A stretch of DNA of 64,000 nucleotides. Origin: Sedimentisphaerales bacterium. GTDB lineage: Bacteria; Planctomycetota; Phycisphaerae; Sedimentisphaerales; Anaerobacaceae. The stretch lies in contig DATKVV010000022.1 of NCBI GenBank assembly GCA_035529895.1, forward strand, positions 1 to 64,000, in the 5' to 3' direction. The first letter of the stretch is position 1, and the number at the start of each line of letters is the position of its first letter. Position numbers and translations under genes: made by a program. Shown piece by piece: positions 1 through 21,515 of this stretch. The notes under the pieces were generated by a model. It worked only from the letters and a program-made list of their open reading frames with translations, did no database searches and was not told where the DNA came from.

Positions 1-90
1 GCGGACACATAGCTGGATGAACCGCTTTCGCCGCATATTGACGCGGTGGGAAAAGAAGCCTGAAAATTATTTGGCTCTGCTTCATCTTGT

Positions 91-888
91 TTGTGCCATA
101 ATTACGTTTCGTTGTTCCGGGTTATTCGGATAGGCTCTAAGCCGCATGCGGAGTTTTATAGGTGGCGCAGGAATGCCGATGGACGGGCGCCGTGGTGCAA
201 ACTTTGTATGCGCGCATACCGGCAGCATGAGCGGATGAGGAAAAAGGTATATGTTGAGGCGAGGCGCTGCAATACATGTAAAGAACTGAAGGGCCGCGAA
301 CACTTTTCAAAGGATATGCTCAACCGGGACGGATTGCGTAGGCAATGCAAGGCGTGTGCGTCACTAAGCCATCGTCGTTGGGCGGTTCGCCAGGCAGATA
401 ATGCTCCGACAGAAAAACAGTGTCGCAGGTGCGGTATAGTAAAGCCGCGAGAGCAATTTCGCCGCGACATGAGGCACGCCGATGGCCTGAGAAGTTATTG
501 CACAGAATGCAATCGCATACGCGGCGCCGCAGACTATGCGCTAGGGTCATTCCGCAAATCTGGCACGACTGGCGGGCCGTCCCTGGCGACGTGGGAACAG
601 GTCGGGCAGGCCGTAGAAGAAATAGCGGGATTACAGAAAATCATAAACCACGAGCGGAGCGCCTGTCTTAAAATCGTACAGGGCATCAAAACCGACCTGG
701 CGGCCAAGATAACCAAGCTGTTAATTCAACAGTCTCATCTCGAAAAGTTAATCGAGCGATTCATCAGAGGGACTCGCCGGAACGGGGAACGCATCGAGCG
801 AATATTTCCCTGTGGCAGAATAAGTTTTTATCGAGGCCGTTTGGAAATCGTCCCAAACCTTCCACATCTTCTTTATGTCGTGGGATAA
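91..888 (+). CDS. Basic multi-zinc-ribbon protein (cassette copy 1). It has at least 3 repeats of CxxC-x(5-6)-F-x-[KR]-D-x(5-7)-DGL-x(3)-CxxC, then a coiled-coil C-terminus. The start is uncertain: TTG at 91, and the N-terminus is shorter than in the paralog at 9215.
   Basis: ORF track. Repeated CxxC pairs are visible in the translation. It is 70-85% identical to the 9215..10045 product. It overlaps the downstream gene start by 14 nt, which suggests an operon. Confidence 0.5.
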   Translation: MCHNYVSLFRVIRIGSKPHAEFYRWRRNADGRAPWCKLCMRAYRQHERMRKKVYVEARRCNTCKELKGREHFSKDMLNRDGLRRQCKACASLSHRRWAVRQADNAPTEKQCRRCGIVKPREQFRRDMRHADGLRSYCTECNRIRGAADYALGSFRKSGTTGGPSLATWEQVGQAVEEIAGLQKIINHERSACLKIVQGIKTDLAAKITKLLIQQSHLEKLIERFIRGTRRNGERIERIFPCGRISFYRGRLEIVPNLPHLLYVVG

Positions 889-1690
889 AATGAGCACAGA
901 GGATATAAGCCGGAAGCAGCAGTTTTTCGACCAGCGGGCACGTAACGAGCGCCTTGCGCCGCCGCAGATTGTCCAGCCCGGCCACGTCGTCCGCCACCCT
1001 GTTTCCGGCAATGCAAAATTATTCGGGGTAATGTCGGCTGCCGACGGCGATGCTCTTTACACATGTCACGAACTCGTTATAGACGCAACAGCCTGGTCCG
1101 ACACTGGCGGCGATAAAAAACTTGTCGAGCTTAACGATACCGAGATTACCGTCCTTAATATCGCTGAATTTGACCCGGAACCTGAGTACGTCGCTCACCT
1201 GGCGTTCGGTGACGTGCTTGTCGGCGTATTTCGCGGAAAAGATGATGAGAACAATATCCGCTGGGCCGGTGTGCCGTTTCGCCGGCAGCATGGAGCGCAG
1301 GTTCGCCGGGCCTTCTGCAAGGCGGCAGCGGGTGACGCGGCCACGATTGATTGTTATCTCGATAAAGACGAGACGGGCACGGAGATTACCGTTAACTGCG
1401 ATATCATCGGCGGCTCGAAACTCAGTGAGGCTATCCCGTGCCTGGCTGATGGCACGCCGCTTGCGGTTTACAAGCTCGCGGACGGCAACTGGTACACTGA
1501 CACAGTATTTCAGACCTTCGATAAGGAAAAGGGCCTCGTAATCGAGTCCGGCAAGCTCGTAGTCAATATCGACGCGACGAAGGGTCTTGAATTTGATGAT
1601 GGTACCAAAAAACTGCAAGTACATATTAACGAGACTGAGCTGCGCTTCGACGGCGGTGAGCTTGAAACAAAAATTTCACCCTGTTCTTAA
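875..1690 (+). CDS. Tail-fibre-like structural protein (cassette copy 1).
   Basis: The C-terminal segment KLVVNIDATKGLEFDDGTKKLQVHINETELRFDGGELE resembles phage tail-fibre repeat motifs. It is about 85% identical to the paralog at 10046..10843. Genomic context is phage structural genes. Confidence 0.5.
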   Translation: MSWDKMSTEDISRKQQFFDQRARNERLAPPQIVQPGHVVRHPVSGNAKLFGVMSAADGDALYTCHELVIDATAWSDTGGDKKLVELNDTEITVLNIAEFDPEPEYVAHLAFGDVLVGVFRGKDDENNIRWAGVPFRRQHGAQVRRAFCKAAAGDAATIDCYLDKDETGTEITVNCDIIGGSKLSEAIPCLADGTPLAVYKLADGNWYTDTVFQTFDKEKGLVIESGKLVVNIDATKGLEFDDGTKKLQVHINETELRFDGGELETKISPCS

Positions 1691-1693
1691 TCT

Positions 1694-2452
1694 ATGGCGA
1701 ACGAAACGATTTACGGCTGTGTTGACTGGGCGACGGGCAAAATCAAGTTTGCACAGGACGCTTGTTATTACTACGGTTGTATAATATGGGAGGGCGTGCA
1801 TGCCGGGCAAGTCGCAGTTACTATTGATATGCCGAATTGCGACGATACTTATTATGGCTGCGTGAACTGGGCAACGGGCAAGTTTCAAGTTGTTGTGCCG
1901 GATAATTGCTGTGAATATCCTCCCTGTGAATATTGCGTGGATACGCCAAGCCAGGTAACTATCACATTTACCGGGTTAACCGAGTGCGAATGTCTGGTTG
2001 AGATGTATGGTTCTGCTAAATTTGTTGGTACAGCAGCCGCGATTAACGGCAATTCGTATGTATTGCCTGCCCGCCCGGATTTACCGTGTCTGTGGAAAAA
2101 GAAATTCACCGGTAATTTTGGTACTTGGAAATGTTATTATTTTACTGAATGTCAGACTTTCGACGACGAAGTGCCATTAACTTTCTTGGATATAGGTGTT
2201 AGGCGCTGCGTAGGCGAGGAGGGAGACGGTTTGCATATCGTGGCCAGGGTGGGAACCGGCTTCGACTTTTGCTGGGGTCCTTCCGTTGGACAAGTTGTAT
2301 ATTTCTATTCAACCAGCGAAGGTGGTTGTTTAGAAGCCGAGATTACAGGATGTGTCGGCGCTGTCGATTTGCCCAATCAAACAGGTTGTGATATTCCGGT
2401 AATTGGTGGCTACTTAATAAGTGGGACTGCTACGATTGTTGAAGGTGGTTGA
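1694..2452 (+). CDS. Cys-rich putative receptor-binding / fibre-tip protein (copy 1). The N-terminal roughly 85 aa are conserved and contain a YGCV[DN]WATGK internal repeat. The C-terminal half is unrelated to the paralog.
   Basis: ORF track. Alignment by eye to the 10850..11599 product shows about 75% identity over the first ~85 aa and none over the remainder. Confidence 0.5.
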   Translation: MANETIYGCVDWATGKIKFAQDACYYYGCIIWEGVHAGQVAVTIDMPNCDDTYYGCVNWATGKFQVVVPDNCCEYPPCEYCVDTPSQVTITFTGLTECECLVEMYGSAKFVGTAAAINGNSYVLPARPDLPCLWKKKFTGNFGTWKCYYFTECQTFDDEVPLTFLDIGVRRCVGEEGDGLHIVARVGTGFDFCWGPSVGQVVYFYSTSEGGCLEAEITGCVGAVDLPNQTGCDIPVIGGYLISGTATIVEGG

Positions 2453-2889
2453 TGTCTTGCAATCAAATTATTCCGCCCAAATTTACTGCCGAACAGACTA
2501 AGGAATGCTTGCACTGCAAAATGGCAAGCGCAAAGGTCCGTTGGTGCGGCCATTTCGGAGTATGGATTCAGGAACAAGGCAAAATTATAACACCACCGGA
2601 GAAAATCGCTTATCCTTCGATGCCCCGAATGGCGGCGAACTTTATGATAGCGGCAGGCAAACATATCGCATCGGGTTTCGCAAACAGAACGCCTGCCGAG
2701 CAGGAACAATGCCGGGTGATATGCGAGGCATGTCCCCACTATGTGCCGGATTCGAGATTAGGCCCGCGCTGCCGAAAATGTGGCTGTTGGGTTTCTCTTG
2801 CAAAACGCTGGGCAACAAAGCCTTGTCCTGAAGGCAAGTGGCCGGTTAACGCGGGTTTAACAGGTGTTGCAACTGTAGTTAAAACATAA
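2449..2889 (+). CDS. Small Cys-rich protein with CxxC, CEACP and CRKCGC motifs (copy 1). It may be a metal-binding fibre-assembly or accessory protein.
   Basis: ORF track. It is about 85% identical to the 11615..12061 product. It overlaps the upstream gene by 4 nt. Confidence 0.5.
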   Translation: MMSCNQIIPPKFTAEQTKECLHCKMASAKVRWCGHFGVWIQEQGKIITPPEKIAYPSMPRMAANFMIAAGKHIASGFANRTPAEQEQCRVICEACPHYVPDSRLGPRCRKCGCWVSLAKRWATKPCPEGKWPVNAGLTGVATVVKT

Positions 2890-2900
2890 GCAAAAGGCAG

Positions 2901-2988
2901 GTATCGCACATAACGCCGAGAGAAAATTGGGCGTTTTGGCTGCGATGTTTTTATGCGCTTCACCGATTCTGTTAAGATAGGCAGGATT
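2901..2988. repeat. Conserved ~88-bp non-coding box directly downstream of cassette copy 1. It contains a short hairpin aacgcc-N12-ggcgtt followed by a T-rich tract.
   Basis: Near-identical sequence (gtatcgcaca..ttaagataggcaggatt) is found at 12092..12180, downstream of cassette copy 2. Confidence 0.6.
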
Positions 2989-3030
2989 CGCCCCTTTTTT
3001 GTGTAATTACCCAACCCCCCTATCCTGTTA

Positions 3031-3100
3031 CCGCCATCTCGTGGGAATTTCCGCCAACATCCGCGCGAAACTACATGTAATCTCACACTAAAGATGGCGG
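3031..3100. repeat. 47-bp motif ccgccaTctcgtgGgaaTTtccgccaacatc...aactaca (single copy) plus its inverted partner agatggcgg. Candidate att, end or iteron site.
   Basis: Strong match to the two tandem 47-bp units at 12214..12310. An inverted repeat ccgccatct (3031-3039) / agatggcgg (3092-3100) is visible. Confidence 0.5.
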
Positions 3101-3621
3101 TGGGCGCGCACGTGCGGGAATACCTGAACATAGACGGCAAAAAGCGGGACGGCGCGCAGCAAACGCGGATTTTTGGGGGACGCGTGGTTAGATTATTAAA
3201 TTTTTTAATGATGGCATAAGTGGCAAAACAGCCAAAAATTCACAGCGAGTTGGCGGAGACTGAACTTTTAAGCGAGGCGCGTTTAAACCCGTTTAAAACA
3301 GCGCCAAATACCAGTTATAAGAAAATGCCCGGCTGGTTTTCTTGACAAAACGCGCGCACGTGGGCCTGCGCGCTTGCTCTTAGAAGTGCGCCTAACAATT
3401 AGGCTAATTAGATGAATAGTGAACAAAACTGGCGGTTTTGAGGCGATACGGCGGTTTTTGGGTGTGCGGGTGAAAACGATTGTGGAAGGATGTGTCGGTT
3501 TTCTTGACAAGGCAAAAAGTTACCCAAATTAACAAACGCTGGCGGGCGGCCAAAAAAATCTTTGAAAATGCAAAAATTTTTTTTCGGCGGGCCGCAAGCC
3601 CCCTGAGCCGTCAAAAAGACC

Positions 3622-3646
3622 AATCTGCAAACGAAGTTTGCAGATT
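3622..3646. promoter_or_regulatory. Perfect 11-bp-arm palindrome aatctgcaaac-gaa-gtttgcagatt. Candidate repressor or operator site in the element control region.
   Basis: Read directly from the sequence. It lies in a ~1-kb ORF-poor region upstream of the head gene block. Confidence 0.45.
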
Positions 3647-3770
3647 CAGGCGGAAGTGATAGGATAGCCGATGATGCAATGGGACGGGCGCTGCCCGGTA
3701 CCACGACGACAATATCATATATCACACAAGGCTATGACCAACGATGCGAAAATTTTTTGCGGGAAAAATA

Positions 3771-3799
3771 TTGACAGGCCGGGCCTGGCGGGGTACAAT
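3771..3799 (+). promoter_or_regulatory. Consensus sigma70 promoter TTGACA-17 nt-TACAAT.
   Basis: ttgaca (3771-3776), a 17-nt spacer, then tacaat (3794-3799). Both hexamers match consensus. Confidence 0.6.
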
Positions 3800-3805
3800 A
3801 CGGCA

Positions 3806-3937
3806 ATCATGGAACACAAAGCACAAAATCCGTTGACTCAAAATACTGTGCTGAACGAGCCTGGGGATTTTCGGAGTGGCAACGCCCGAACGGCTGCTTT
3901 GTGGCCGCATGAGTCCCCAGGCTCGTTCAGTCTTTTT
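3806..3937 (+). ncRNA. Candidate ~130-nt small RNA or leader/attenuator, running from the consensus promoter to a strong intrinsic terminator.
   Basis: The predicted TSS is about 7 nt after the -10. There is a 17-bp inverted repeat ctgaacgagcctgggga (3851-3867) / tccccaggctcgttcag (3914-3930), followed by tcttttt. No plausible ORF fits within it. A good SD (aaagggga) for the next gene follows at ~3957. Confidence 0.4.
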
Positions 3938-3969
3938 CTGCGCAGGCAGAAAATTGAAAGGGGACTAAC

Positions 3970-4317
3970 ATGAAACACAAAGATGGACAAACAGAAGGAT
4001 GCAACGGGCAGGGCAGGCGTGAACAGGTGCGGGGCGTGACCGCGCAGCTCGGCTCGCTCGCAGAACGGCTGCACGTGGAGTGCAGTGACAACAAACGGCT
4101 GGCGCTTGGCTGTATCACGGTCCTTATCGAGCTTGAGGACATATTGACCTCGGATGCCATTGACGGGCTGCGAGATGCGCAGCGATATTTACTGAACGAT
4201 GTTGAACGGGCCGAGAAAGCGGAAGCGTCACCGGACGATGAATCGCTCGAGCGCATACTGGGCACGGCAGAGGGAATCGCCGAGCAGCTTCAGGAAGCGG
4301 CGGGAATCACCTTATAA
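3970..4317 (+). CDS. Hypothetical acidic 115-aa protein, first gene of the head block.
   Basis: ORF track. Preceded by an SD. Immediately followed by the prohead protease, which has its own SD. Confidence 0.4.
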   Translation: MKHKDGQTEGCNGQGRREQVRGVTAQLGSLAERLHVECSDNKRLALGCITVLIELEDILTSDAIDGLRDAQRYLLNDVERAEKAEASPDDESLERILGTAEGIAEQLQEAAGITL

Positions 4318-4328
4318 GGAGATAGTCG

Positions 4329-5090
4329 ATGGACACGGATGTCGATTTTGCAGGGCTGGCTAAGGGGCAGCAATCACTTCTCGCAAAGACGGGGCCTGAC
4401 ACACGGACGTGCCAGGCCCTTGTCAAATCCATAGACAATACCCGAAAACGGATCACCGCAGTGGTCTCGGCGCCCGTTTTGGACAGGGACAACGAAATTA
4501 TAGAGGCTTCGGCGTTCGCCGAATCGCTGGCCGGTTTTATGAAAAACCCGGTTGTCCTGGCCTCTCACCAGCACAAATTATCCGACGGGCATTCCCCGGT
4601 TATAGCTAATGTCACCGCAGCAAAGACGACGCCGGGGGGCCTGGAGGTCGAGGTAGAATATCACGATGAAACCGAGCTTGCCCGCGAGTACTGGGGACTG
4701 TACTCGAAGAAGATTCAGCGGGCGTTCTCTGTGGGCTTCATACCGAAAGAGGGGGAATACAAAAACATAAAAGACTCGCGCGTGTGGTGTCACACAAAGG
4801 CGGAGCTTGTCGAGATATCGTGCGTGCCCGTGCCGTCGTGCCCGGAAGCGCTGTCGAGGTCCACACAAAAGAAGCTCGACTTCATAACTGCCAAGCGGAG
4901 CGAGCGGGAAGATGAGCAGTTCCTGGCGGAGCTGCGAAAAGAGGGCCTGGACCTGGATAAGCTGCGTGACGAGTTCGGGGACGTAATGCTGATGTCGGAC
5001 GATGACTGGGGCGTCGATGATTCGAAGGGGGCGGGCGGTGATGACGAATATGATTTTGTTGGCTTGGTTCGAGGTGTCGTAAGGCTATGA
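4329..5090 (+). CDS. Phage prohead (maturation) protease, HK97/S78-like.
   Basis: N-terminal motif ITAVVSAPVLDRDNEIIEASAF, then VLASHQH and ELVEISCVPVPSCPEA, which are typical of HK97-family prohead proteases. aaggag SD. It lies directly upstream of the capsid gene. Confidence 0.65.
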   Translation: MDTDVDFAGLAKGQQSLLAKTGPDTRTCQALVKSIDNTRKRITAVVSAPVLDRDNEIIEASAFAESLAGFMKNPVVLASHQHKLSDGHSPVIANVTAAKTTPGGLEVEVEYHDETELAREYWGLYSKKIQRAFSVGFIPKEGEYKNIKDSRVWCHTKAELVEISCVPVPSCPEALSRSTQKKLDFITAKRSEREDEQFLAELRKEGLDLDKLRDEFGDVMLMSDDDWGVDDSKGAGGDDEYDFVGLVRGVVRL

Positions 5091-5250
5091 GGATTCGCTT
5101 AGGAACAGATAATTGCCGGCGCTCCGCATGCTGCGATTATTTTGCTGGCGGGTCCGCTGCGGGTCATGGCTCAATCTCCAAAAGAGGGGGACGCGCAACC
5201 AGCGACGTCCCCCTGTTGTGCTGGGAGCTGGCAATCCGTGTTTATGAGGT

Positions 5251-6426
5251 ATGACAATGCCACTTATTGAAGAAAGAATCGCCGCAGGCTTCGAGGCCGC
5301 AGGCGAAAGAATGAATACGTTTGAGCAGAATCAAAAGGAGCTTCAAGAGAGCGTAAATATACTTACGAAGATGCTGCGTGAGTATGGCAGGGCGCTTAGC
5401 GCGGGCAATCCACCGTTCGACCAGGAAAGCAACCGGTTCTGGCGGACCGAAGAGGACGCAAGGCAGTTCGGTGAGCTGGTGCTCACGGCGATTGGCCGCA
5501 AGGCTATGGCCGAAGGTACGAACATCGGCGGCGGCGCGCTTGTCGATGCGACGCTGAGCGCCCAAGTGATTCAAAGACTCGGCAAATACGGCAAGCTGCG
5601 CGGCAACTGCACGGTTGTCCCCATAGGCTCGGCCGCGCAGCATTTTCCGAGGGTACAGTCTGACTTGACGGTATATTGTCCCGGCGAAGGGGGGACGATA
5701 AGCGAAAGCGACATGGGTTTTAACGTGGTCAAGATGATTCCGAAAACATTTGTCGCGCTGGCAGCCATATCGAACGAGCTTGACGACGATTCGATTGTCG
5801 GCTTGGGCGAGATTATCGGCATGTCGATGGCTCGGAGCATGGCAAAAAAAGAGGATGAAATCGGCTTTGTCGGGGACGGGACAGCGACTTTTTTCGGCAT
5901 GACCGGAATCTGCCAGGCCCTGCTTAACGTGGATGCCACAATTGCGAGCATTAAAGGCCTGGTAGTTGGCGCCGGGGATACGTATGCAGAGTTGACGCTC
6001 GGCGATTTTCGCAAGGTCGTGGGAATCCTGCCGGAGGATTGTGACGACACCGCCAAGTGGTACATGCACAAGCGATTTTATTATTCTGTCGTGTACCCGC
6101 TGGCGGAGACGGCGGGCGTCGCAAACATCTTTGAGATTTTAACAGACCGCAAGGGACGATTCCTTTTGGGCTACCCGGTCGAGTTCGTCCACTGTATGCC
6201 GTACACGGGAGCTGCTTCACAGATATGCGCGCTGCTCGGCGATTTACAGATGGGCTGTTATATCGCGGACCGCAAGATGCTGACTATCGAGCAGAGCAGC
6301 GAGGTCAAGTTCTTGACGAACCAAAAGGCAATCAGGGGCGTCGAGCGAATCGACATTAACGCCTTCGGCGTCGGAGATACGAGCGAGCCGGGGCCGATTG
6401 TCGGGCTGATAACTGCCGCTGCATAA
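5251..6426 (+). CDS. Major capsid protein, HK97 fold.
   Basis: 391 aa. It follows the prohead protease. The N-terminal delta-domain-like coiled segment and overall length are typical. Assigned from established gene order, not from a search. Confidence 0.6.
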   Translation: MTMPLIEERIAAGFEAAGERMNTFEQNQKELQESVNILTKMLREYGRALSAGNPPFDQESNRFWRTEEDARQFGELVLTAIGRKAMAEGTNIGGGALVDATLSAQVIQRLGKYGKLRGNCTVVPIGSAAQHFPRVQSDLTVYCPGEGGTISESDMGFNVVKMIPKTFVALAAISNELDDDSIVGLGEIIGMSMARSMAKKEDEIGFVGDGTATFFGMTGICQALLNVDATIASIKGLVVGAGDTYAELTLGDFRKVVGILPEDCDDTAKWYMHKRFYYSVVYPLAETAGVANIFEILTDRKGRFLLGYPVEFVHCMPYTGAASQICALLGDLQMGCYIADRKMLTIEQSSEVKFLTNQKAIRGVERIDINAFGVGDTSEPGPIVGLITAAA

Positions 6427-6510
6427 TGAGACAAGAGCGGGAGCGCGGGCGGCAAGCATCGCTTTGACCGCCCGCGTTCCCCGTGTTTACCAAAGTTAGG
6501 AGTATAAAAA

Positions 6511-6957
6511 ATGATTGAGATACAAGAGATGAAAATGATTATCGCCCTCAGGCCGCAGCTAAAGAACGCCGGGGCCTTCGCCAATAACGCATACTGGGAC
6601 CGTTCAAACTGGAACCACGAGCGGGTATTGTTCGTCGTGGGCGATACCGATGTTATTGTCGGTTCGACTGACACGAGTACTCCGCCGTTTGTCGAGGAGT
6701 GCGATACGGTCGGCGGCGGTTATACCGCCGTCACAGACGCTGCGCTTTCGGCGGTAATCGGGGCGCTCGACGATAACAAGCTGTTTGCTATCGACATCGA
6801 CCTGCGCAAGACGCATAAGCGGTATGGCCGGGTAAATGCGCCGACGGCGGGCGATTCAACAGGCGCAAATCTGGCTATCCTCGTGATTCTCAGCAAGGGC
6901 GAAATCGGGCCGAAGAACGCGGCGGGCCAGGGATTAGCCGAATTGGTGACGGCGTGA
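6511..6957 (+). CDS. Hypothetical 148-aa protein. It may be a head-decoration or head-tail connector protein.
   Basis: ORF track. aggag SD. Position between the capsid and the tape-measure-like gene. Confidence 0.35.
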   Translation: MIEIQEMKMIIALRPQLKNAGAFANNAYWDRSNWNHERVLFVVGDTDVIVGSTDTSTPPFVEECDTVGGGYTAVTDAALSAVIGALDDNKLFAIDIDLRKTHKRYGRVNAPTAGDSTGANLAILVILSKGEIGPKNAAGQGLAELVTA

Positions 6958-6975
6958 CACAGCGCGTAAAGTGAC

Positions 6976-8865
6976 ATGGCAAAAGACATTAACATACATC
7001 TAAAGACCACCGGGGCCGAGCAGACCAAAGAACAGCTCGACCAGACGGCGCGTTCTGCTGAGAAAATCGGCGAGTCCACACAGCAGGCGGGCAGACAGGC
7101 GGTCAAAGGCGCCGAGTGGGTCAAGAGCGCATTTAGCGCTATCGTCGGTCCTTTAGGTCTGGCGGCGCTTGCCGCCGCCGTCATTAACATCGTCCGCAAA
7201 ATACGCGCGGCGATTAACGACATGAAACAGGCTTCCTCAGAGGCCGTCAGCTCGCTGGCTGCGCTGCAGAAGGCGTCCGCCGATTACTTCGAGGCATTCG
7301 AGGCATATTCGCCCGAACAGAGGCAGGCGGCGCTTTTGCAGGCCCGGCAGTTTCAGGCAAAGACGGGACTGCCGATTGAGGCTTCACAAAAGCTGTTAGA
7401 GGCGTACAAGCGGACCTTCGGCAAATTGAATGAGGCGGCGGTCGAGCAGCTCGCGGGGTACTGGCAGTTGCACGGCCAGGAAGCGACGCTCGACCTGGTG
7501 CGATGGATGGGCGCCGAGCGAGTCACCACGCCGCAAAGACAGGGACAGATAACACGCATGGTCTCGGCGGTTGCCAGCGAGACCGGCCTCAGGGACGCGG
7601 AGATTATAAGCGCGCTGACGCGATACTCGACGGAGCTGCGCGGCCTGGGCTGGACGCCGGAAGAAACGATAATGAATATCGGCAAGGCCCTGGCGGGCAA
7701 ATCGCCGCTGGAGGCGCGCCGGGCGATGAGCTCGCTGGTGGACGGGATAAGGGCCTTCACCGAAGAAAAGGCGCTCGAGATGAAAGCGGCGGCGGAGATA
7801 GCTGCTTCAGAGAAAGAGCGGCTGGCCTGGGCGCGCCAGACAATGCTCAAGATGGAGCCGGAGGCGCGCCGCAAGTTCGCACGCCAGGCGTTCGGCGAAA
7901 CGGCTGCGCCGTATGTCACCGGGTGGCTTCTGGCTGAATATCCCGAAAAGACGCGGCGCGCGCTTGAGTACGCCCGCACACCGGATGCCGCCGAGCAGGA
8001 GCGCCAACGGGTCGAGGCCGTCAAACAAACAGCCGAAGCCGGGCGGGAAATAACCGAAGGCGGGGCCAAAAAATTGGAACTGCTCTTGGCCGAAGAAGAA
8101 AAACAGCGAGACGCGATACGGGAATACGGCAGGGTTTATCTTGAATATCTGCGCAGACGCGACCGGATACAATACGAGCTTATTAAAGCGCGTGCCGGGG
8201 ACAACGTGGAGCTGCAAAAAGAGGAGGCCGCCAAAGTATTGTTTGAGCTGAGCCGTCCGCCGCCAGCGCGTACGCGAAAAGAGCTTGCCAGCTTGGAATA
8301 CAGGCAAACCCGCGTAGAGCCGCCGGAGAAGATAGAATGGCAGGACATCCCGCTTGAAGAAAAAACAGAAGAACTGAAAAAGGCTATTAACAAGATTTAT
8401 GACCGGGAAGTGGAGAAAGAACGGCAGCGACGCGAGCAGCGGCAAAAGCAAAAAAAAGAGCCTGTCCTTGACCAGACCGCCGAAGAAGAGCCTTCACCGC
8501 CAACAGCAGCCGCCGAAACACGAGGCCCTAAGCGGATTACAAAAGAGCAGCCGCCAGCCGGAGAATTAGCGGGTCCGGAACTGCCGACCGAGACAGCGCC
8601 CACTCCGGCCAGGCGGGTAGCCGCCGAGATTCCGGAGCTGCCGACTGAGACAGCGCCCGCTCCGGCCAGGCGGGTAGCCGCCGAGATTCCGGAACCGGAG
8701 CTGCCGACTGAGACGGCGCCCGCTCTGGCCAGACAGGTAGCCGAAATTCCCGTCCTGGAGGCGCCGACGCACGTTGTGCACGTTACACATAACTATAACA
8801 ACAACCTACAATTTTTCCCTTCCGTCCATGAGGACGACAGGGGACCAAGGTTTGAGCAGGTATAA
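6976..8865 (+). CDS. Tape-measure-like or scaffold-like protein. It has a hydrophobic segment, long coiled-coil regions and a Pro/Glu-rich tandem-repeat C-terminus.
   Basis: The segment WVKSAFSAIVGPLGLAALAAAVINIV resembles tape-measure-protein N-terminal cores. Three 20-aa repeats PELPTETAP(T/A)PARRVAAEI are present. Confidence 0.4.
   Translation: MAKDINIHLKTTGAEQTKEQLDQTARSAEKIGESTQQAGRQAVKGAEWVKSAFSAIVGPLGLAALAAAVINIVRKIRAAINDMKQASSEAVSSLAALQKASADYFEAFEAYSPEQRQAALLQARQFQAKTGLPIEASQKLLEAYKRTFGKLNEAAVEQLAGYWQLHGQEATLDLVRWMGAERVTTPQRQGQITRMVSAVASETGLRDAEIISALTRYSTELRGLGWTPEETIMNIGKALAGKSPLEARRAMSSLVDGIRAFTEEKALEMKAAAEIAASEKERLAWARQTMLKMEPEARRKFARQAFGETAAPYVTGWLLAEYPEKTRRALEYARTPDAAEQERQRVEAVKQTAEAGREITEGGAKKLELLLAEEEKQRDAIREYGRVYLEYLRRRDRIQYELIKARAGDNVELQKEEAAKVLFELSRPPPARTRKELASLEYRQTRVEPPEKIEWQDIPLEEKTEELKKAINKIYDREVEKERQRREQRQKQKKEPVLDQTAEEEPSPPTAAAETRGPKRITKEQPPAGELAGPELPTETAPTPARRVAAEIPELPTETAPAPARRVAAEIPEPELPTETAPALARQVAEIPVLEAPTHVVHVTHNYNNNLQFFPSVHEDDRGPRFEQV
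8575..8755 (+). repeat. Three tandem ~60-bp in-frame repeats inside the 629-aa gene.
   Basis: ccggaactgccgaccgagacagcgcccactccggccaggcgggtagccgccgagatt recurs three times with point differences. Confidence 0.7.
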
Positions 8866-8881
8866 GAACAAAGGAGTCAAT

Positions 8882-9115
8882 ATGCAGATAGAGATAACGA
8901 ACGATTACAGAGGCCCGCTGGGGACATTCAAGCCGGGCGAGACATACGATTTTCCAAAGAAGGTGGTCCGGCGCCTTCCGACATCCTGTTATAAAGAAAT
9001 ACTTCCGCCTCAGGACGAAGGGCAAGTGCGGGTAATGGGCGGCAAAGAGACTTCCCCCAAGACTGATGTTGCGCGAGAGCCGACGTCTAATACGCCGAAA
9101 AAAACCGGACGCTAA
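8882..9115 (+). CDS. Hypothetical 78-aa protein, using the internal start MQIEITNDY.
   Basis: aaaggag SD, 7 nt before the ATG at 8882. The longer ORF from 8774 overlaps the upstream gene and lacks an SD. Confidence 0.35.
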   Translation: MQIEITNDYRGPLGTFKPGETYDFPKKVVRRLPTSCYKEILPPQDEGQVRVMGGKETSPKTDVAREPTSNTPKKTGR

Positions 9116-9214
9116 CTCAGTCAGCGGGTTGGTGATAGCACACGTGTTCGGGTCCGCGAGTCCCGAACGCGTGAAAATAATCAGGCTTATGCCTGCTGTT
9201 TATAGAGTGGTTAA

Positions 9215-10045
9215 ATGGGTTTTAACGAGATATTACAATCACATGGCGTAGTACCGAAGGTCGAGACGAAGGTCTGCGGCAAATGTCACCAGGCCAAGCC
9301 GCTCGAGGAGTTTTCTAAGAACGCAACACAATCACATGGCCGCGAAATCTACTGCAAACTCTGTAGGCGTGTATATCGACAACACCAAAAGGCCAGACAG
9401 AAGGTACATGTCAAAGAAAAGCGGTGCGGTAAATGCAGGGAAGTGAAGGGCCGCGAGCGCTTTTCAAAAGACGCGAGTACGCGAGACGGATTGCGCAGTC
9501 AATGCAAAGAGTGTGCGTCATTAAGTCACCGTCATTGGGCGGCTCACCAGGCAGTTAACGCGCCGACAGAAAAACGGTGTCGCAAATGCGGCATAGTAAA
9601 GCCGCGAGAGGAATTTCACCGGGACCCGAAACACCTCGACGGGCTGCGAAGTTATTGCATACAATGCAGGCGGTTGTTAAGTGCTGCGGATTACGCATTA
9701 CGGTCATCCAGGCAGTTCGCCGTAGCCGCCGGTCCGTCCCTGGGGACGTGGGAACAGGTCGAGCAGGCCGTAAAACAAATATCGGAATTACAGAAAATCA
9801 TAAACCACGAGCGGAGCGCCTGTCTTAAAATCGTACAGAGCGTCAAAACCGACCTGGCGGCCAAAGTAACGCGACTTCTTCTACGGCAAGTGGACCTTGA
9901 AGGACTAATCGAGCGATTCATAAAGAAGAACCGTCGAAACGGGGACCGTATCGAGCGGGTCTGTGCGCACGGGAGAATATCCTTTTTTAAGGGTCGTCTG
10001 GATGTTATACCAAACTTACCGACCCGTCTTGTTGTGGAGAGATAA
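9215..10045 (+). CDS. Basic multi-zinc-ribbon protein (cassette copy 2). It has 4 CxxC-pair repeats and a coiled-coil C-terminus.
   Basis: ORF track. Paralog of 91..888, with some stretches 100% identical at the DNA level (for example aaaatcataaaccacgagcggagcgcctgtcttaaaatcgtacag). Confidence 0.55.
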   Translation: MGFNEILQSHGVVPKVETKVCGKCHQAKPLEEFSKNATQSHGREIYCKLCRRVYRQHQKARQKVHVKEKRCGKCREVKGRERFSKDASTRDGLRSQCKECASLSHRHWAAHQAVNAPTEKRCRKCGIVKPREEFHRDPKHLDGLRSYCIQCRRLLSAADYALRSSRQFAVAAGPSLGTWEQVEQAVKQISELQKIINHERSACLKIVQSVKTDLAAKVTRLLLRQVDLEGLIERFIKKNRRNGDRIERVCAHGRISFFKGRLDVIPNLPTRLVVER

Positions 10046-10843
10046 ATGGGCAGTAAGGACATAGGCCGGAAGCAGGAGTTTTTCAACGAGCGTGCCCGCA
10101 ACGAGCGCCTTGTCGGTCCCGAAATAATCCAGCCCGGCAGGGCGGTCCGCTATCCCACTTCCGGCAACACGAAGCTGTTCGGGGTGGTAACTACCGCTGA
10201 GGGGGATGGTCTTTACATCTGCCATGAATTGGTCATAGATGCGGCGGCCTGGTCCGATACCGAAGGCGCGGTCAAATTTGTCCAGCTTAATGATACCGAG
10301 GTCACCGTCTTTAATATCGCCGAATTTGACCCTGAGTCCGAGTATGTCGCCCCGCTTGCCTTCGGCGATGTCCTGGTGGGCGTTTTTCACGGCAAAGACA
10401 ACGCGAATAATATCCGCTGGGCTGGCCTGCCTTTCCGGCGCCAGCATGGAGCGCAGATTCGGCGGGCCTTCTGCAAGGCGGCGGCCGGGGCGGCGGCAAC
10501 GATTGTCTGCTATCTCGATAAAGACGGCAGCGGCTTCGAAATTACCGTCAACTGCGACATCGTCGGCGGCTCGAAACTCAGCGAGGCTATCCCGTGTCTG
10601 GCGATTGGTACGCCGCTTGAAGTTTACAAATTGGCGGATGGTAATTGGTACACGCCTACTAAATTCCAGACCTTTGACAAAGAAAAGGGCCTGGTCATCG
10701 AGTCCGGTAAGCTCATCGTCAACATCGACGATACCAAGGGCCTTGAATTTGACGCGGGCGACCATAAACTTGCGGTGAATATCAATACTACGGAATTGCA
10801 GTTCGATAGCGGCGAAATTGAAACTAAACTTGACGCCTGTTGA
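10046..10843 (+). CDS. Tail-fibre-like structural protein (cassette copy 2).
   Basis: Paralog of 875..1690. The start abuts the upstream stop. Confidence 0.5.
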   Translation: MGSKDIGRKQEFFNERARNERLVGPEIIQPGRAVRYPTSGNTKLFGVVTTAEGDGLYICHELVIDAAAWSDTEGAVKFVQLNDTEVTVFNIAEFDPESEYVAPLAFGDVLVGVFHGKDNANNIRWAGLPFRRQHGAQIRRAFCKAAAGAAATIVCYLDKDGSGFEITVNCDIVGGSKLSEAIPCLAIGTPLEVYKLADGNWYTPTKFQTFDKEKGLVIESGKLIVNIDDTKGLEFDAGDHKLAVNINTTELQFDSGEIETKLDAC

Positions 10844-10849
10844 TAGATT

Positions 10850-11599
10850 ATGGCAAACGAAACGATTTACGGCTGTGTTGAATGGGCAACGGGCAAGGTC
10901 AAATTCACACAGGATAATTGTATTTACCGGGGCTGCATAGTCCGGGGCGGGGTTCACGACGGCCAAGTGGCCGTTACTATCAATACTCCAAATTGCAATG
11001 ATACTTATTACGGCTGCGTGAACTGGGGAACGGGCAAATTCGAAGTAAGTGTGCCGGATAATTGCTGTGCAACGACTGATTGTGAATGGTGCGAAGGCGC
11101 TCCGCCGGGGTGGATAGATGTAACTTTTACGGGCCTTAGCGATTATGGCTGCGATTGTTATTACGATGTTTATGGTTATCACAGTTATAAATCTGTTGGA
11201 ATTGATATGTATAATGGCACTTGGCGCGTTCCATATTACGGGGAATGCGCTTATCACAGATTTTCTTGGGACCCAGACCCATTACCCGTATGTTCAGAAT
11301 GTCAGGAATGGTGGACCAACCAGGACTGTTCCGGTATCTATGGCTTCAAACAACATATAAATCCATCTCTGTCGGTTTATTTAATCGAAAGTGGTGTTTA
11401 TATTCAGATGCATTCGTCGAATATAGGAGTAGCAATCTTTCAGGGCACAATAAATTATACCGGGGATGATTCTTGCGGTGATACAGAAAACTCCTGCAAT
11501 AACACCTATACTTTGCCGGGTGAGTGTTGGCAATACCCGCCCGACCCCTATGTACGTACTTTTTGCACTACTGGCAGCGCAACCGTGAGCATAGCATAA
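10850..11599 (+). CDS. Cys-rich putative receptor-binding protein (copy 2) with a divergent C-terminal half.
   Basis: Shares the N-terminal MANETIYGCVEWATGK..YYGCVNWGTGKF with copy 1. The C-terminal ~165 aa are unrelated. Confidence 0.5.
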   Translation: MANETIYGCVEWATGKVKFTQDNCIYRGCIVRGGVHDGQVAVTINTPNCNDTYYGCVNWGTGKFEVSVPDNCCATTDCEWCEGAPPGWIDVTFTGLSDYGCDCYYDVYGYHSYKSVGIDMYNGTWRVPYYGECAYHRFSWDPDPLPVCSECQEWWTNQDCSGIYGFKQHINPSLSVYLIESGVYIQMHSSNIGVAIFQGTINYTGDDSCGDTENSCNNTYTLPGECWQYPPDPYVRTFCTTGSATVSIA

Positions 11600-11614
11600 A
11601 TTTAATACTCATAA

Positions 11615-12061
11615 TTGATAATTATGATATGTAATCAAATCATCCCGCCCCAATTTACGGCGGAACAGATTAAAGAATGTTCTTGCTGTAAAATGGCCAG
11701 CGCGAGGGTTCGCTGGTGCGGACATTTCGGGGTGTGGATTCAGGAGCAAGGCAAAATCATAACGCCGCCCGAGAACATCGTTTATCCTTCGATGCTCCGA
11801 ATGGCGGGTAGTTTTGCTATGGCGGCGGCCAGGCATGTCGCGTCGGGTTTTCGGAATAGAACACCTGCCGAGCAGGCACAGTGCCGGGCGATATGCGAGG
11901 CGTGTCCCTATTACGTGCGGGATTCGAAATTAGGCCCGCGATGCCGCAAGTGCGGCTGCTGCGTGTCCCTTGCCAGACGGTGGGCAACCAAGCGATGTCC
12001 TGAAGGCAAATGGCCGATTAACGCGGGTTTAACGAGCGTTGCAACTGCGGTTAAAGCATAG
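11615..12061 (+). CDS. Small Cys-rich protein (copy 2).
   Basis: Paralog of 2449..2889. Confidence 0.5.
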   Translation: MIIMICNQIIPPQFTAEQIKECSCCKMASARVRWCGHFGVWIQEQGKIITPPENIVYPSMLRMAGSFAMAAARHVASGFRNRTPAEQAQCRAICEACPYYVRDSKLGPRCRKCGCCVSLARRWATKRCPEGKWPINAGLTSVATAVKA

Positions 12062-12091
12062 ATACAAAGTGGTAAAATGTAGGTAGTCGCA

Positions 12092-12180
12092 CACAACGCC
12101 GAGAGAAAAAGAGGCGTTTTGGCTGCGATGTTTTTATGCGCTCCACTGATTCTGTTAAGATAGGCAGGATTTTCGGCCTC
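12092..12180. repeat. Conserved ~88-bp non-coding box, copy 2.
   Basis: Matches 2901..2988. Confidence 0.6.
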
Positions 12181-12213
12181 ATCAGACAATTACCTATTTT
12201 GCCCAAATCCCAT

Positions 12214-12310
12214 CCGCCAACTCGTGTGAAAATCCGCCAACATCACTGTAAACCTACACCCGTCCGCCAACTCGTGTGAAAATCCGCCAACATCACTGTG
12301 AAACTACACC
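12214..12310. repeat. Two tandem 47-bp units (period 50 bp): ccgccaactcgtgtgaaaatccgccaacatcactgt(g)aaa(c)ctacacc.
   Basis: The tandem duplication is directly visible. Each unit contains two ccgccaa half-sites and matches the single unit at 3031..3077. Confidence 0.65.
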
Positions 12311-12421
12311 TACACTACAGGGAGTTATGTGTTGTAAAAAAATTGAAGATTTTTTTGGATTTTTGTTGCACCGTCGTGCATATTGTGTCATATTGTAACA
12401 TATTGATGAGGATGTTACATT

Positions 12422-13090
12422 ATGCAGTTAATTTCAATAGAAGATTTGGCGGTTTATTTGGGTGACTCCAAACGGACTATTTACAAGTATATTGCCAGCG
12501 GCGACTGCCCGCCGTATATCCGGATAAGCGCCAAGAATATCAAATTCGACCGGACGGATGTCGATGCCTGGCTGGAATCCAAGAAAGTAATGCCGGAGCC
12601 CAATTCAGAGTGTTGGCCGCGAGGTTCTCTGCCCTGGACGCCGCGTGCAAAGCGGGTTATGAAACTGGCGGAGGACATCAGCCGCCGATACAAGTTGGAC
12701 CGCGCGGGAACGGGGGAAATGCTGCTGGGTATCGTGGAAGTCAAAGACTGTCTCGGCGCAGGCATACTCAGAAACTTCGGCGTTGACCATCCAAAGGTCC
12801 GTGAGCTGTATGAACGGTTGTACGAGGAAACGAAGGCGGAAGTCAAAAACAAAGCGTCGGGCGAGAAGTCAAATCTTGCGAACGATGCACAAAAGGCAAT
12901 TCGATGTGCCCGTGAGCAAGCCGTACGGTGGGGCCACGAGTACGTTGGAGCAGAACACCTGCTGGTCGGTATCCTGCTTGCCGGTGAGGGACTGGGCCAC
13001 AGGATCTTGACCGAGCTTGGCATCACTCTCGATAAAGTGCGCGCGGAAACCGCAAAGCTGATTGTTTGCAGGCCCGGGCAGAAACAATAA
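12422..13090 (+). CDS. Fusion of an excisionase/AlpA-type helix-turn-helix DNA-binding domain to a Clp N-terminal (Clp_N) repeat domain.
   Basis: The N-terminal ~55 aa (DLAVYLGDSKRTIYKYIASGDCPPYIRISAKNIKFDRTDVDAWL) match the HTH_17/Xis pattern. The remainder has two ClpA/ClpC N-domain-like repeats (AKRVMKLAEDISRRY..GTGEMLLGIV and AQKAIRCAREQAVRWGHEYVGAEHLLVGILL). SD gaggatg. Confidence 0.55.
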   Translation: MQLISIEDLAVYLGDSKRTIYKYIASGDCPPYIRISAKNIKFDRTDVDAWLESKKVMPEPNSECWPRGSLPWTPRAKRVMKLAEDISRRYKLDRAGTGEMLLGIVEVKDCLGAGILRNFGVDHPKVRELYERLYEETKAEVKNKASGEKSNLANDAQKAIRCAREQAVRWGHEYVGAEHLLVGILLAGEGLGHRILTELGITLDKVRAETAKLIVCRPGQKQ

Positions 13091-13155
13091 TCCGTCGGAC
13101 CGTTTAAGAGACGAAAAGCAATGTAAGTTTGCAAACGTAAGGAAAGGAAGAAGAG

Positions 13156-13395
13156 ATGATTGGTGCTACATGCGCAAACACAGCAGGAGGGCTTGTAATT
13201 GTGCTGGTGGGCTTCGCGGCCTACGTATTCATAATTGCACTGGTTATTATCTGCCTGATCCGGGCCTCGAGATACTTTATGACAGCAGGCAAGGAACAAA
13301 AGCTGACGCGAATAGAACTGGGCAAGCTTGCTGAAGAGGTTCATCAATTGCGTCAGGATCTGAAAGGCGGCAGGGAAGATGATTCTTGCTCCTAA
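13156..13395 (+). CDS. Small membrane protein (79 aa): one TM helix followed by a charged amphipathic helix.
   Basis: Strong SD aaggaaagga. Paralog of the next ORF. Confidence 0.45.
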   Translation: MIGATCANTAGGLVIVLVGFAAYVFIIALVIICLIRASRYFMTAGKEQKLTRIELGKLAEEVHQLRQDLKGGREDDSCS

Positions 13396-13447
13396 CCAGT
13401 AGAGTGCTGTCAGAAAGAAATCAGCCCACAAAGAAAGGGGGCAGAAA

Positions 13448-21464: not shown

Positions 21465-21515
21465 AGTGCGAACTGCAAAACTCTGGAGTGCGTGCATTCG
21501 GCTGCGCTCAGGAGT

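What the first reader, a model, noticed from the sequence alone, without database searches (positions are those of the whole stretch)
1694..2452. Cys-rich protein with conserved N-terminus and completely replaced C-terminus between the two cassette copies (candidate hypervariable receptor-binding tip)
The two copies (1694..2452 and 10850..11599) align at about 75% over residues 1-85, including a duplicated YGCVxWATGK motif. The remaining ~165 residues show no detectable similarity, yet both remain extremely Cys-, Gly-, Tyr- and Trp-rich. The flanking genes on both sides stay 85% identical. This domain-swap pattern is the signature of host-range or receptor-binding determinants. It would also fit polymorphic toxins, except that the downstream gene does not co-vary.
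Basis: seen in the sequence. Interest (0 to 1): 0.6.

Follow-up and report, generated by a model that had tools for sequence, protein, structure and literature searches.

The report
Swappable Cys-rich phage fibre-tip protein
The two Cys-rich genes are alleles of one uncharacterised two-module phage protein, probably a tail-fibre tip, whose binding module was exchanged by recombination; this is an ordinary phage strategy in a new protein family, not an unrelated domain replacement.

Summary
The two proteins (1694-2452 and 10850-11599) are 76% identical over aa 1-75, 33% over aa 76-135 and 15% over the last ~115 aa. That last stretch is not distinguishable from shuffles in a pairwise comparison. 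Flanking genes are 77-80% identical, not 85%.

A profile built from 144 other family members, with both copies left out, matches both C-terminal parts end to end (70 and 47 bits; shuffles reach at most 13). So both carry the same domain, highly diverged.

The family has at least 1,400 clusters at 50% identity. It has no Pfam, PHROG, NCBIfam or PDB match.

In 15 loci the gene lies between a fibre-like gene (collagen repeats or Laminin_G in some) and a small conserved multi-Cys gene. Where a tape-measure gene is recognisable, the trio lies downstream of it.

Some relatives join the same N-module to CBM_5_12 or to a beta-propeller. Two metagenomic contigs are 99.5% identical up to the N/C module boundary and then unalignable. 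That is a recombination breakpoint at the same place as in the window.

The two "cassettes" are the ends of two tandem ~9.2-kb elements that encode a capsid and lack portal, terminase and integrase. Receptor binding is inferred, not shown.

The parts
1694..2452 (+). F2 copy A, a Cys-rich two-module protein of 252 aa. The N-module is aa 1-75 (nt 1694-1918). A CxxC linker follows (C78, C81). The C-module is aa ~83-252 (nt ~1940-2449).
   Evidence: AF2 model has pLDDT 85.5 and is all-beta.
10850..11599 (+). F2 copy B, 249 aa. The N-module is nt 10850-11074. The C-module is nt ~11099-11596.
   Evidence: AF2 model has pLDDT 78.6 and the same order of secondary-structure elements as copy A.
1914..2457 (+). 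The segment of copy A with no DNA similarity to copy B (partner segment 11070-11629). It starts right after the PDNCC motif that ends the N-module and stops at the start of the next gene.
   Evidence: blastn. Third-codon-position identity falls from 64% in the N-module to 24% distally; random pairing gives 26.9 +/- 4.6%.
875..1690 (+). F3 copy A, a fibre-like protein of 271 aa that ends in a conserved ...C-S. It is 77% identical to copy B.
   Evidence: Relatives carry collagen repeats (L001, L006, L007) or Laminin_G_3 (L022).
10046..10843 (+). F3 copy B, 265 aa.
2449..2889 (+). F1 copy A, a small conserved multi-Cys protein of 146 aa. It gives a weak DUF6171 match and hits phrog_13558. It is 80% identical to copy B.
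11615..12061 (+). F1 copy B, 148 aa.
137..888 (+). The 3' part of the zinc-ribbon + Mu-Gam-like gene (F8) of element A. The gene is cut by an IS insertion, and 137-141 (CTAAG) is the target-site duplication.
1..136 (.). End of an insertion sequence. Its terminal inverted repeat is gggttattcggataggct at 119-136. This is where the contig ends.
   Evidence: The other IS end, and the start of an ORF (MKKRKAKNRYRISDELWEKIEPL) that resembles an IS5-family transposase from memory only, lie at the end of contig L017.
9215..10045 (+). F8 copy B, intact, 276 aa: three zinc-ribbon repeats plus a Mu-Gam-like C-terminus.
   Evidence: The L020 homologue carries PF07352.
3076..12308 (+). Element B, about 9.2 kb. 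Gene order: small ORFs, S78 protease (4329-5090), HK97 major capsid protein (5251-6426), a 148-aa protein (6511-6957), a 629-aa helical protein that looks like a tape measure (6976-8865), a 77-aa protein (8882-9115), then F8, F3, F2 and F1. The left end is TGTAATCTCACACT... and the right end is ...GAAACTACA.
12209..12308 (+). Two 50-nt direct repeats at the right end of element B, each with two CCGCCAAC motifs. One copy lies at the right end of element A (3026-3075).

Best explanation
F2 is a two-module protein of tailed phages of Planctomycetota.

Shown:
- The N-module (aa 1-75) is a duplicated beta-hairpin unit with seven near-invariant Cys and one near-invariant His. It is the best-conserved part of a three-gene module, F3-F2-F1.
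- The C-module (aa ~83-250) is an all-beta domain with a conserved Cys/Trp/Gly framework and hypervariable remaining sequence.
- Both window copies carry the same C-domain family.
- In relatives, recombination exchanges the C-module at the N/C boundary.
- The two copies sit on two tandem ~9.2-kb capsid-encoding elements.

Inferred:
- The N-module is an adaptor that fixes the protein to the fibre (F3) and/or to the multi-Cys partner F1.
- The C-module is the exposed, receptor-binding (probably glycan-binding) head.
- Homologous recombination between the conserved N-module sequence and the conserved end of the gene or the F1 gene swaps C-modules between related phages and elements.
- That is how the two tandem elements came to carry different heads between 75-80% identical flanks.
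- The two heads give two receptor specificities.

For: 2. Exchange by recombination. Contigs L025 and L024 are 99.5% identical over 939 nt, up to F2 gene nt ~230 (PDDCC-EI). They are then unalignable for ~345 nt, and similarity resumes at 80% for the gene's end and downstream. In the window the break is at gene nt 220. Third-codon identity is 54-64% in flanks and 24% distally, which equals the random value. Among family members, 55 pairs have at least 75% identical N-modules, and all of them have only 15-36% identical C-parts.

3. Tail context. The order F3-F2-F1 is kept in all 15 loci that extend past F2. In L002 the module follows a tape-measure protein (phrog_27166 E 6e-36, PF06791). Eleven loci are IMG/VR viral contigs. 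F3 relatives carry collagen repeats or Laminin_G_3.

4. Binding modules on the same N-module. 12 of 150 members have CBM_5_12. L012 joins the N-module to an SBBP beta-propeller, and L013 adds CBM_5_12. In L022 the C-module is a stand-alone gene after a Laminin_G-bearing F3.

5. No co-variation with neighbours. The F3 C-terminus (79%) and F1 (78-80%) stay conserved while the F2 head differs. So the variable surface faces something other than its neighbours.
Against: - No experiment or virion proteome places F2 in a particle, and no receptor is known.
- The window elements have no recognisable baseplate, tail tube, portal or terminase. What virion the protein would sit on here is unknown.
- Element A is hit by an IS.
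- Both AF2 models were built from the same 63-sequence alignment, which biases them towards one fold.
- The third-codon test depends on an uncertain distal alignment.
- Family pairs come from identity-clustered databases, which removes pairs that are similar overall.
- The role of the about 15 conserved Cys (disulfides or metal sites) is unknown.
Confidence: 0.6

Rival explanations
1. The two heads diverged in place after a tandem duplication, through strong diversifying selection and without any exchange with an outside allele.
For: A and B are each other's closest relatives for every other gene: capsid protein 90%, protease 81%, the 148-aa protein 93%. Identity declines in steps (76%, 33%, 15%) rather than in one jump. 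Neither head has a close relative in the databases; the best distal hits are 31-34% identical.
Against: Third-codon positions in the distal part are at the random level (24% against 26.9 +/- 4.6%), while flanks keep 54-64%. Selection on amino acids should not erase synonymous similarity. The DNA similarity edges are sharp and coincide with the module boundary and the gene end. A clean breakpoint at the same boundary is seen in L024/L025, whose flanks are 99.5% identical.
Confidence: 0.15
2. F2 is not a receptor-binding protein. It might be another variable phage protein, for example a fibre chaperone or cap, a tail-tip or needle component, or a protein that counters a variable host defence or surface factor.
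For: No binding function was tested. The fold is unassigned. It sits beside a multi-Cys protein of unknown role. The window elements lack a recognisable tail.
Against: A chaperone or cap would be expected to co-vary with the fibre end, but F3's last 110 aa are 79% identical while the head differs. Relatives place carbohydrate-binding modules and a beta-propeller on the same N-module. There is no signal peptide or lipobox at the N-terminus (MANETIYGC..., read from the sequence). PADLOC gives no hit.
Confidence: 0.2
3. F2 is a polymorphic toxin or the variable protein of a diversity-generating retroelement.
For: The only support is the conserved-N, variable-C pattern.
Against: No toxin domain was found in Pfam, NCBIfam or PADLOC. 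The downstream gene does not co-vary. The gene lies in phage tail modules. No template repeat of either variable segment exists in the 64-kb window. No reverse transcriptase was found among the element's 10 main ORFs scanned. The differences run through the whole module and include indels, rather than adenine-site substitutions. No C-type-lectin fold hit was found.
Confidence: 0.03
4. The two-copy arrangement is an assembly chimera of two strain variants rather than a real tandem.
For: The source is a metagenome-assembled genome. The contig ends inside copy A at a repeat, the IS.
Against: Both copies lie on one contig, with a unique junction at 3075/3076. The copies differ by 20-25% in DNA, too much to be collapsed or mis-joined. 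A shorter ENA contig (26.3 kb, L003) also holds both copies, and the two F2 proteins are each recorded on three contigs across NCBI, JGI and ENA. The missing left half of element A is on a separate 45-kb contig that ends in host genes. It joins the window in frame across the IS, with matching inverted repeats and a CTAAG duplication.
Confidence: 0.03

Closest known systems
Modular phage receptor-binding proteins: conserved N-terminal anchor plus horizontally exchanged C-terminal receptor-binding domain. Examples are E. coli O-antigen tailspikes (PMC10408124) and Klebsiella phage RBP systems (bioRxiv 10.64898/2026.05.12.724579; PMC13579863); only the titles and abstract openings listed were seen. 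Lactococcal shoulder/neck/head RBPs are cited from my own knowledge.
   Same: The N-terminal part is conserved and the C-terminal part is hypervariable. The recombination breakpoint lies at the module boundary. The gene lies in the tail region. Carbohydrate-binding modules occur in some members.
   Different: There is no sequence or fold relationship to any of them. The protein is small (about 250 aa) and has about 7.5% Cys with about 15 conserved Cys. The variable part is one domain family with a fixed Cys framework, not a set of unrelated enzymes or heads. It is always followed by a dedicated multi-Cys protein. No trimerisation signature was tested.
Tail-fibre plus cognate chaperone modules shared between distant phages (Alteromonas phages, PMC10579305, abstract opening; Mu/P2 S-U and lambda Stf-Tfa from my own knowledge).
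   Same: A fibre gene is followed by small accessory genes, and the host-recognition module moves as a unit between unrelated phage or element backbones. Here the F3-F2-F1 module is present in siphovirus-like contigs and in the window's small elements, but absent from the syntenic element L020.
   Different: In those systems the chaperone co-varies with the fibre tip. Here neither neighbour co-varies with the variable module.
DGR variable proteins (Bordetella phage BPP-1 Mtd; my own knowledge).
   Same: A phage tail-tip protein with a hypervariable C-terminal ligand-binding surface on a fixed scaffold.
   Different: No reverse transcriptase, no template repeat and no C-type-lectin fold were found. 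The variation is module-wide with indels, not adenine-directed.
Capsid-forming phage satellites (cf-PICIs; my own knowledge). This concerns the context only.
   Same: A small chromosomal element that encodes its own HK97-type capsid protein and protease but is not a complete phage. Two related elements sit in tandem at one site.
   Different: No portal, head-tail connector, small terminase or integrase was recognised. The element carries fibre genes, a tape-measure-like protein and a Mu-Gam-like protein. Its ends are TGTA...TACA, and relatives are linked to MuA/MuB (L021, L023).

Membership tests
Modular phage receptor-binding protein (anchor + exchangeable head) | Encoded in the tail or host-recognition region of tailed phages | tested here: met
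   The gene order F3-F2-F1 is kept in 15 of 15 loci. It lies downstream of a tape-measure protein in L002, and 11 loci are IMG/VR viral contigs.
Modular phage receptor-binding protein (anchor + exchangeable head) | N-terminal part conserved and C-terminal part variable among relatives | tested here: met
   Mean pairwise identity across 55 locus pairs is 52% for the N-module and 20% for the distal part. All 55 pairs with N-modules at least 75% identical have C-parts 15-36% identical.
Modular phage receptor-binding protein (anchor + exchangeable head) | Recombination breakpoints at the module boundary | tested here: met
   L024 and L025 are 99.5% identical up to gene nt ~230 and then unalignable. 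In the window the break is at gene nt 220.
Modular phage receptor-binding protein (anchor + exchangeable head) | Present in the virion and binds the host receptor, so that host range follows the head | not testable with these tools
   This needs virion proteomics, binding assays and module swaps.
   For the window pair, both heads belong to one profile family. True replacement does occur in relatives, such as the L012 beta-propeller.
DGR variable protein | Reverse transcriptase and a template repeat near-identical to the variable region; C-type-lectin fold | tested here: not met
Polymorphic toxin with immunity gene | C-terminal toxin domain and a co-varying downstream immunity gene | tested here: not met
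   No toxin domain was found. The downstream F1 is 80% identical between copies.
CBM_5_12 carbohydrate-binding module | Match to PF02839 | tested here: not met
   Neither window copy matches. 12 of 150 relatives do, with a best E of 2.1e-9.
Knottin / lectin-like head | Structural similarity to a cystine-knot or known lectin fold | tested here: not met
Capsid-forming satellite (cf-PICI-like), context of the cassettes | Capsid, protease, portal, connectors, small terminase and integrase | tested here: not met
   Only the protease and capsid protein are recognised. No portal, terminase or integrase is found in 3076-12308.
Mu-like transposable phage, context | MuA transposase and MuB; TG...CA ends; 5-bp target duplication | tested here: inconclusive
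   The window elements have no MuA or MuB. The ends are TGTA...TACA. Relatives L021 and L023 carry MuA/MuB. GGGAG occurs at the left flank of A and 11 nt beyond the right end of B, but no duplication is seen in L020.

The most novel reading that the evidence does not exclude
The two 'cassettes' may be the host-recognition ends of two tandem, non-autonomous ~9.2-kb elements with TGTA...TACA ends. Each element encodes only a capsid protein, a protease, a tape-measure-like protein, a Mu-Gam-like protein and the F3-F2-F1 fibre module. On this reading they are satellites of Mu-like phages of Planctomycetota. They would build or re-tip particles with helper parts, and each would carry its own receptor-binding head, so one chromosome site holds two alternative host specificities. 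The Cys framework of F2, F1 and F3 would then be a metal- or disulfide-locked plug-in system for attaching heads.
Probability: 0.15. Interest if true: 0.75.

Novelty: new member of a known kind. Interest (0 to 1): 0.45.

Why it matters
- It defines a large, unannotated protein family: at least 1,400 clusters at 50% identity, with no Pfam, PHROG, NCBIfam or PDB match.
- The family probably sets host range in phages of Planctomycetota, a phylum with almost no cultured phages.
- The module boundary is mapped to within a few codons (after PDxCC). That gives a ready design rule for head swaps and for predicting specificity classes from metagenomes.
- The conserved Cys framework shared with two partner proteins points to an unusual, testable attachment chemistry.
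- The genomic context exposes a widespread family of small capsid-encoding elements in Planctomycetota whose lifestyle is unknown.

Tried and rejected
- **DGR:** rejected. There is no template repeat and no reverse transcriptase.
- **Polymorphic toxin or defence system:** rejected.
- **GenBank phages:** tblastn with F2 and F1 found no match.
- **IMG/VR:** scans with the capsid protein and with F8 found no relatives.
- **GTDB genomes:** the first alignment was too diverse to scan. The second scan found only a Pirellulales MAG contig and one weak hit.
- **F3 homologue search:** gave only 8 proteins.
- **Literature:** DUF6171 returned 0 papers. A search for Planctomycetes, Mu-like and capsid returned nothing relevant.
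- **L023:** the 126-aa gene after F3 looked like a C-module by eye but is not significant (4.3 bits).
- **Mu-type 5-bp target duplication:** inconclusive.
- **Direct superposition of the two AF2 models:** not possible, because the coordinates are not exposed.
- **PDB sequence searches** with the 629-aa protein and with F3 found nothing.

Full report
**1. The observation**

Each of the two regions holds four co-linear genes:
- a zinc-ribbon + Mu-Gam-like protein (F8): 91-888 and 9215-10045
- a 271/265-aa protein (F3): 875-1690 and 10046-10843
- the Cys-rich protein (F2): 1694-2452 and 10850-11599
- a 146/148-aa multi-Cys protein (F1): 2449-2889 and 11615-12061

Protein identities between the copies are 64% for F8, 77% for F3 and 80% for F1.

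For F2, BLASTP aligns aa 1-128 at 55% identity, E 1e-46. By segment, identity is 76% (aa 1-75), 33% (aa 76-135) and 15% (aa 136-252). The distal pairwise score is no better than shuffles: z = 0.78, and 106 of 500 shuffles score as high.

At DNA level the copies align at 75% over 196-1913 / 9353-11069 and at 79% over 2458-3061 / 11630-12244. Nothing aligns in between. The duplicated YGCVxWxTGK unit is also a DNA repeat.

So the pattern is real and sharp. The flanks are 77-80% identical rather than 85%, and the middle third of the protein is still recognisably similar.

**2. The two C-terminal parts are homologous**

A search of 5.8 billion proteins found 65 relatives of 200-320 aa. This search also gave the source name, a Sedimentisphaerales MAG. 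A profile search of 1.84 billion cluster representatives found 1,422 at E <= 1e-3 and 176 at E <= 1e-30, almost all aligned end to end.

An alignment of 146 members shows near-invariant positions along the whole length:
- N-module: C9, C24, C29, H36, C49, C56, C72, C73
- linker: C78, C81, P85
- C-module: C98, C100, N118-G119, C132-x-W134, C153, F204, C220, N228, C232, G239, G244

Copy B has the same residue in the same column at nearly all of these.

Two leave-out tests support homology:
- An HMM of the distal region (after aa 136) was built from 138 members with no pairwise similarity to A or B. It scores A at 26.3 bits and B at 22.8 bits. None of 1000 composition-preserving shuffles reached that (maxima 13.2 and 10.4).
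- An HMM of the whole C-module (aa 83 to the end) was built from the 144 other members. It scores A at 70.4 bits (E 2.7e-20) and B at 47.1 bits (E 3.9e-13), both end to end.

**3. What the fold is**

There is no Pfam, PHROG, NCBIfam or PADLOC hit, and no relative in GenBank phages. The protein is not a knottin, a known lectin or a C-type-lectin DGR target.

**4. Genomic context in relatives**

In every locus that extends past F2 (15 of 15), the order is F3-F2-F1. Eleven loci are IMG/VR viral contigs.

L002 is a 54-kb phage contig. There the module follows a head-completion protein, a tape-measure protein (phrog_27166 E 6e-36; PF06791) and two more genes, and it precedes a DNA polymerase A replication block.

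F3 relatives contain collagen-like repeats (L001, L006, L007) or Laminin_G_3 (L022). They end in a conserved ...LDxC tail.

The same N-module carries other C-terminal parts:
- 12 of 150 members have CBM_5_12.
- The L013 protein is longer and ends in CBM_5_12.
- The L012 protein is N-module + CBM-like motif + SBBP beta-propeller, 866 aa in all.

Conversely, in L022 the C-module is a stand-alone 156-aa gene after a Laminin_G-bearing F3 (22.3 bits; best shuffle 10.8). N and C are therefore separable modules.

Across 55 locus pairs, mean identity is 52% for the F2 N-module, 40% for F1, 28% for the F3 C-terminus, 25% for the F2 middle and 20% for the F2 distal part. The N-module is the most conserved part of the trio. 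The head is at noise level even in the closest pair.

**5. How the heads come to differ**

Among family members, 55 pairs have N-modules at least 75% identical, and all of them have C-parts only 15-36% identical. P0024 and P0028 have 100% identical N-modules and 28% identical C-parts.

Their contigs (L025, L024) are 99.5% identical over 939 nt, which covers the upstream gene plus F2 up to nt ~230 (codon 77, PDDCC-EI). They are then unalignable for ~345 nt. Similarity resumes at 80% for the last ~60 nt of F2 and downstream. This is a recombination breakpoint at the module boundary.

In the window the break is at F2 nt 220 (codon 73, PDNCC), and similarity resumes at the first codons of F1.

Third-codon-position identity between A and B is 64% (F2 N-module), 54% (F3), 62% (F1) and 63% (F8). 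It is 41% in the middle of F2 and 24% distally, equal to the random-pairing value of 26.9 +/- 4.6%.

I therefore infer that one of the two heads was brought in by recombination from a distant allele of the same domain. In-place divergence is less likely. The caveat is that the distal codon alignment is uncertain. No donor allele was found; the best distal relatives are 31-34% identical.

**6. What the two "cassettes" are**

The contig ends at window position 1. A capsid protein 90% identical to the window's lies on a 45-kb contig from the same set of assemblies (L017, L018). That contig ends with host genes (LytB, S1, sigma-70, a phosphoribosyltransferase), followed by a 144-aa protein, protease, capsid protein, a 148-aa protein, a 577-aa protein, a 78-aa protein, the first 30 codons of F8, and then an IS end.

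Window 1-136 is the other IS end. It carries the inverted terminal repeat, followed by a CTAAG duplication. Joining the two contigs restores the F8 reading frame: CKQTK|PHAEFYRW, against CHQAKPLEEFSKN in copy B.

So the chromosome holds two tandem ~9.2-kb elements between the phosphoribosyltransferase gene and an HTH_17/prmC region:
- Element A is L017 ~7735-13990, plus the IS, plus window 137-3075.
- Element B is window 3076-12308.

Neither element has a recognisable portal, terminase, tail tube, integrase or transposase. The ends read TGTAA...ACTACA.

The syntenic site in a related genome (L020) holds a single element with the same core but without F3-F2-F1. The fibre module is therefore an accessory of the window's elements.

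Relatives of the capsid protein are common in Planctomycetota contigs: 709 proteins at E <= 1e-20. Some lie next to MuA/MuB (L021). A Mu-like element in L023 carries an F3 homologue.

**7. Most likely mechanism**

Shown: two modules, one C-domain family, boundary recombination in relatives, a tail-region context, and binding modules on the same N-module.

Inferred: the N-module plugs the protein onto the F3 fibre and/or F1. The C-module is the exposed receptor-binding head, probably glycan-binding. The two tandem elements carry two specificities.

The lack of co-variation with F3 and F1 argues that the variable surface faces an outside partner. I put about 0.6 on the receptor-binding role and above 0.9 on the architecture and the homology of the heads.

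**8. Comparison with known systems and novelty**

The logic is that of modular phage RBPs, with a conserved anchor and horizontally exchanged heads (literature listed). Membership in that functional kind is met for context, conservation pattern and breakpoints. It is untested for virion location and binding.

F2 is not a member of any described sequence or fold family.

Unusual features are the roughly 15 conserved Cys, the constant multi-Cys partner F1, and carriage on small capsid-encoding elements that lack portal and terminase.

My verdict is a new member (a new family) of a known kind. The interest is moderate. The element context is the more novel lead.

Noticed in passing
window 1-141, with L017 13990-14129: An insertion sequence interrupts the F8 gene of element A, and this is why the contig ends here. 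The evidence is the inverted terminal repeats agcctatcctaataaccc / gggttattcggataggct, the 5-bp duplication CTAAG, and an ORF that starts MKKRKAKNRYRISDELWEKIEPL. That start looks like an IS5-family transposase from memory; no family search was run.
   Followed up: partly
window 3076-12308 (element B); L017 ~7735 to window 3075 (element A); L019, L020, L021: Two tandem ~9.2-kb elements encode an S78 protease, an HK97 capsid protein, a 148-aa protein, a ~600-aa tape-measure-like protein and a Gam-like protein. No portal, terminase or integrase is recognisable. The ends are TGTAA...ACTACA. The same core occurs singly at the same site in L020 and at another site in L019. GGGAG flanks the left end of A and lies 11 nt past the right end of B, which could be a 5-bp duplication or chance. 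The lifestyle is unknown: satellite, defective Mu-like element or domesticated element.
   Followed up: partly
L021 11253-14191; L023 1-2897: A close relative of the window's capsid gene is followed directly by MuA and MuB genes (L021). A Mu-like element with GemA and Gam carries an F3 homologue near its end (L023). This links these elements to transposable phages.
   Followed up: no
window 3857-3926 (+): A weak Rfam match to the c4-2 antisense RNA of the P1/P7 immunity type (30.8 bits, gathering score 41, E 0.0045). It lies in the ~1.2-kb mostly non-coding leader of element B.
   Followed up: no
window 8574-8750: Three 57-nt tandem repeats encode PELPTETAPxPARRVAAEI at the C-terminus of the 629-aa protein. 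The element-A homologue is 577 aa and does not align in this region. This is a length-variable tail on a tape-measure-like protein.
   Followed up: no
window 3026-3075 and 12209-12308: A 50-nt terminal repeat, present once in A and twice in B, with two CCGCCAAC motifs in each copy. The reverse-complement motif GTTGGCGG lies near the left end of B (3249). These could be protein-binding sites at the element ends.
   Followed up: partly
window 2449-2889 and 11615-12061; F1 in L001-L015: F1 is a small protein with many conserved Cys, including CxxC and CGC motifs. It gives a weak DUF6171 match and hits phrog_13558. It follows the F2 N-module in 15 of 15 loci, whatever C-terminal part F2 carries. 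It is possibly a metal-binding partner or maturation factor of the N-module.
   Followed up: partly
window 12422-13090 (+): An unusual fusion of an excisionase-type HTH_17 domain (which also matches the MADS mad1 HTH, E about 1e-7) with two Clp_N repeats, just outside element B. The L020 homologue is the 66-aa HTH alone.
   Followed up: no
L022 10001-11838: Here the F3 homologue carries a Laminin_G_3 lectin-like domain. It is followed by a stand-alone F2 C-module with no N-module, and then by a distant F1-like gene (21.5 bits).
   Followed up: partly
window 21510-21876 and 22350-22493: Tandem 144-nt repeats built from ~36-nt sub-units that contain the palindrome GGTGGGGCAAGCCCCACC. There are no spacers, so this is not a CRISPR array. 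Function unknown.
   Followed up: no
window 15277-16965 (-): A 562-aa ORF with six or more 135-144-nt periodic repeats, that is, a repeat-domain protein. A separate 56-nt repeat lies at 15020 and 17656.
   Followed up: no
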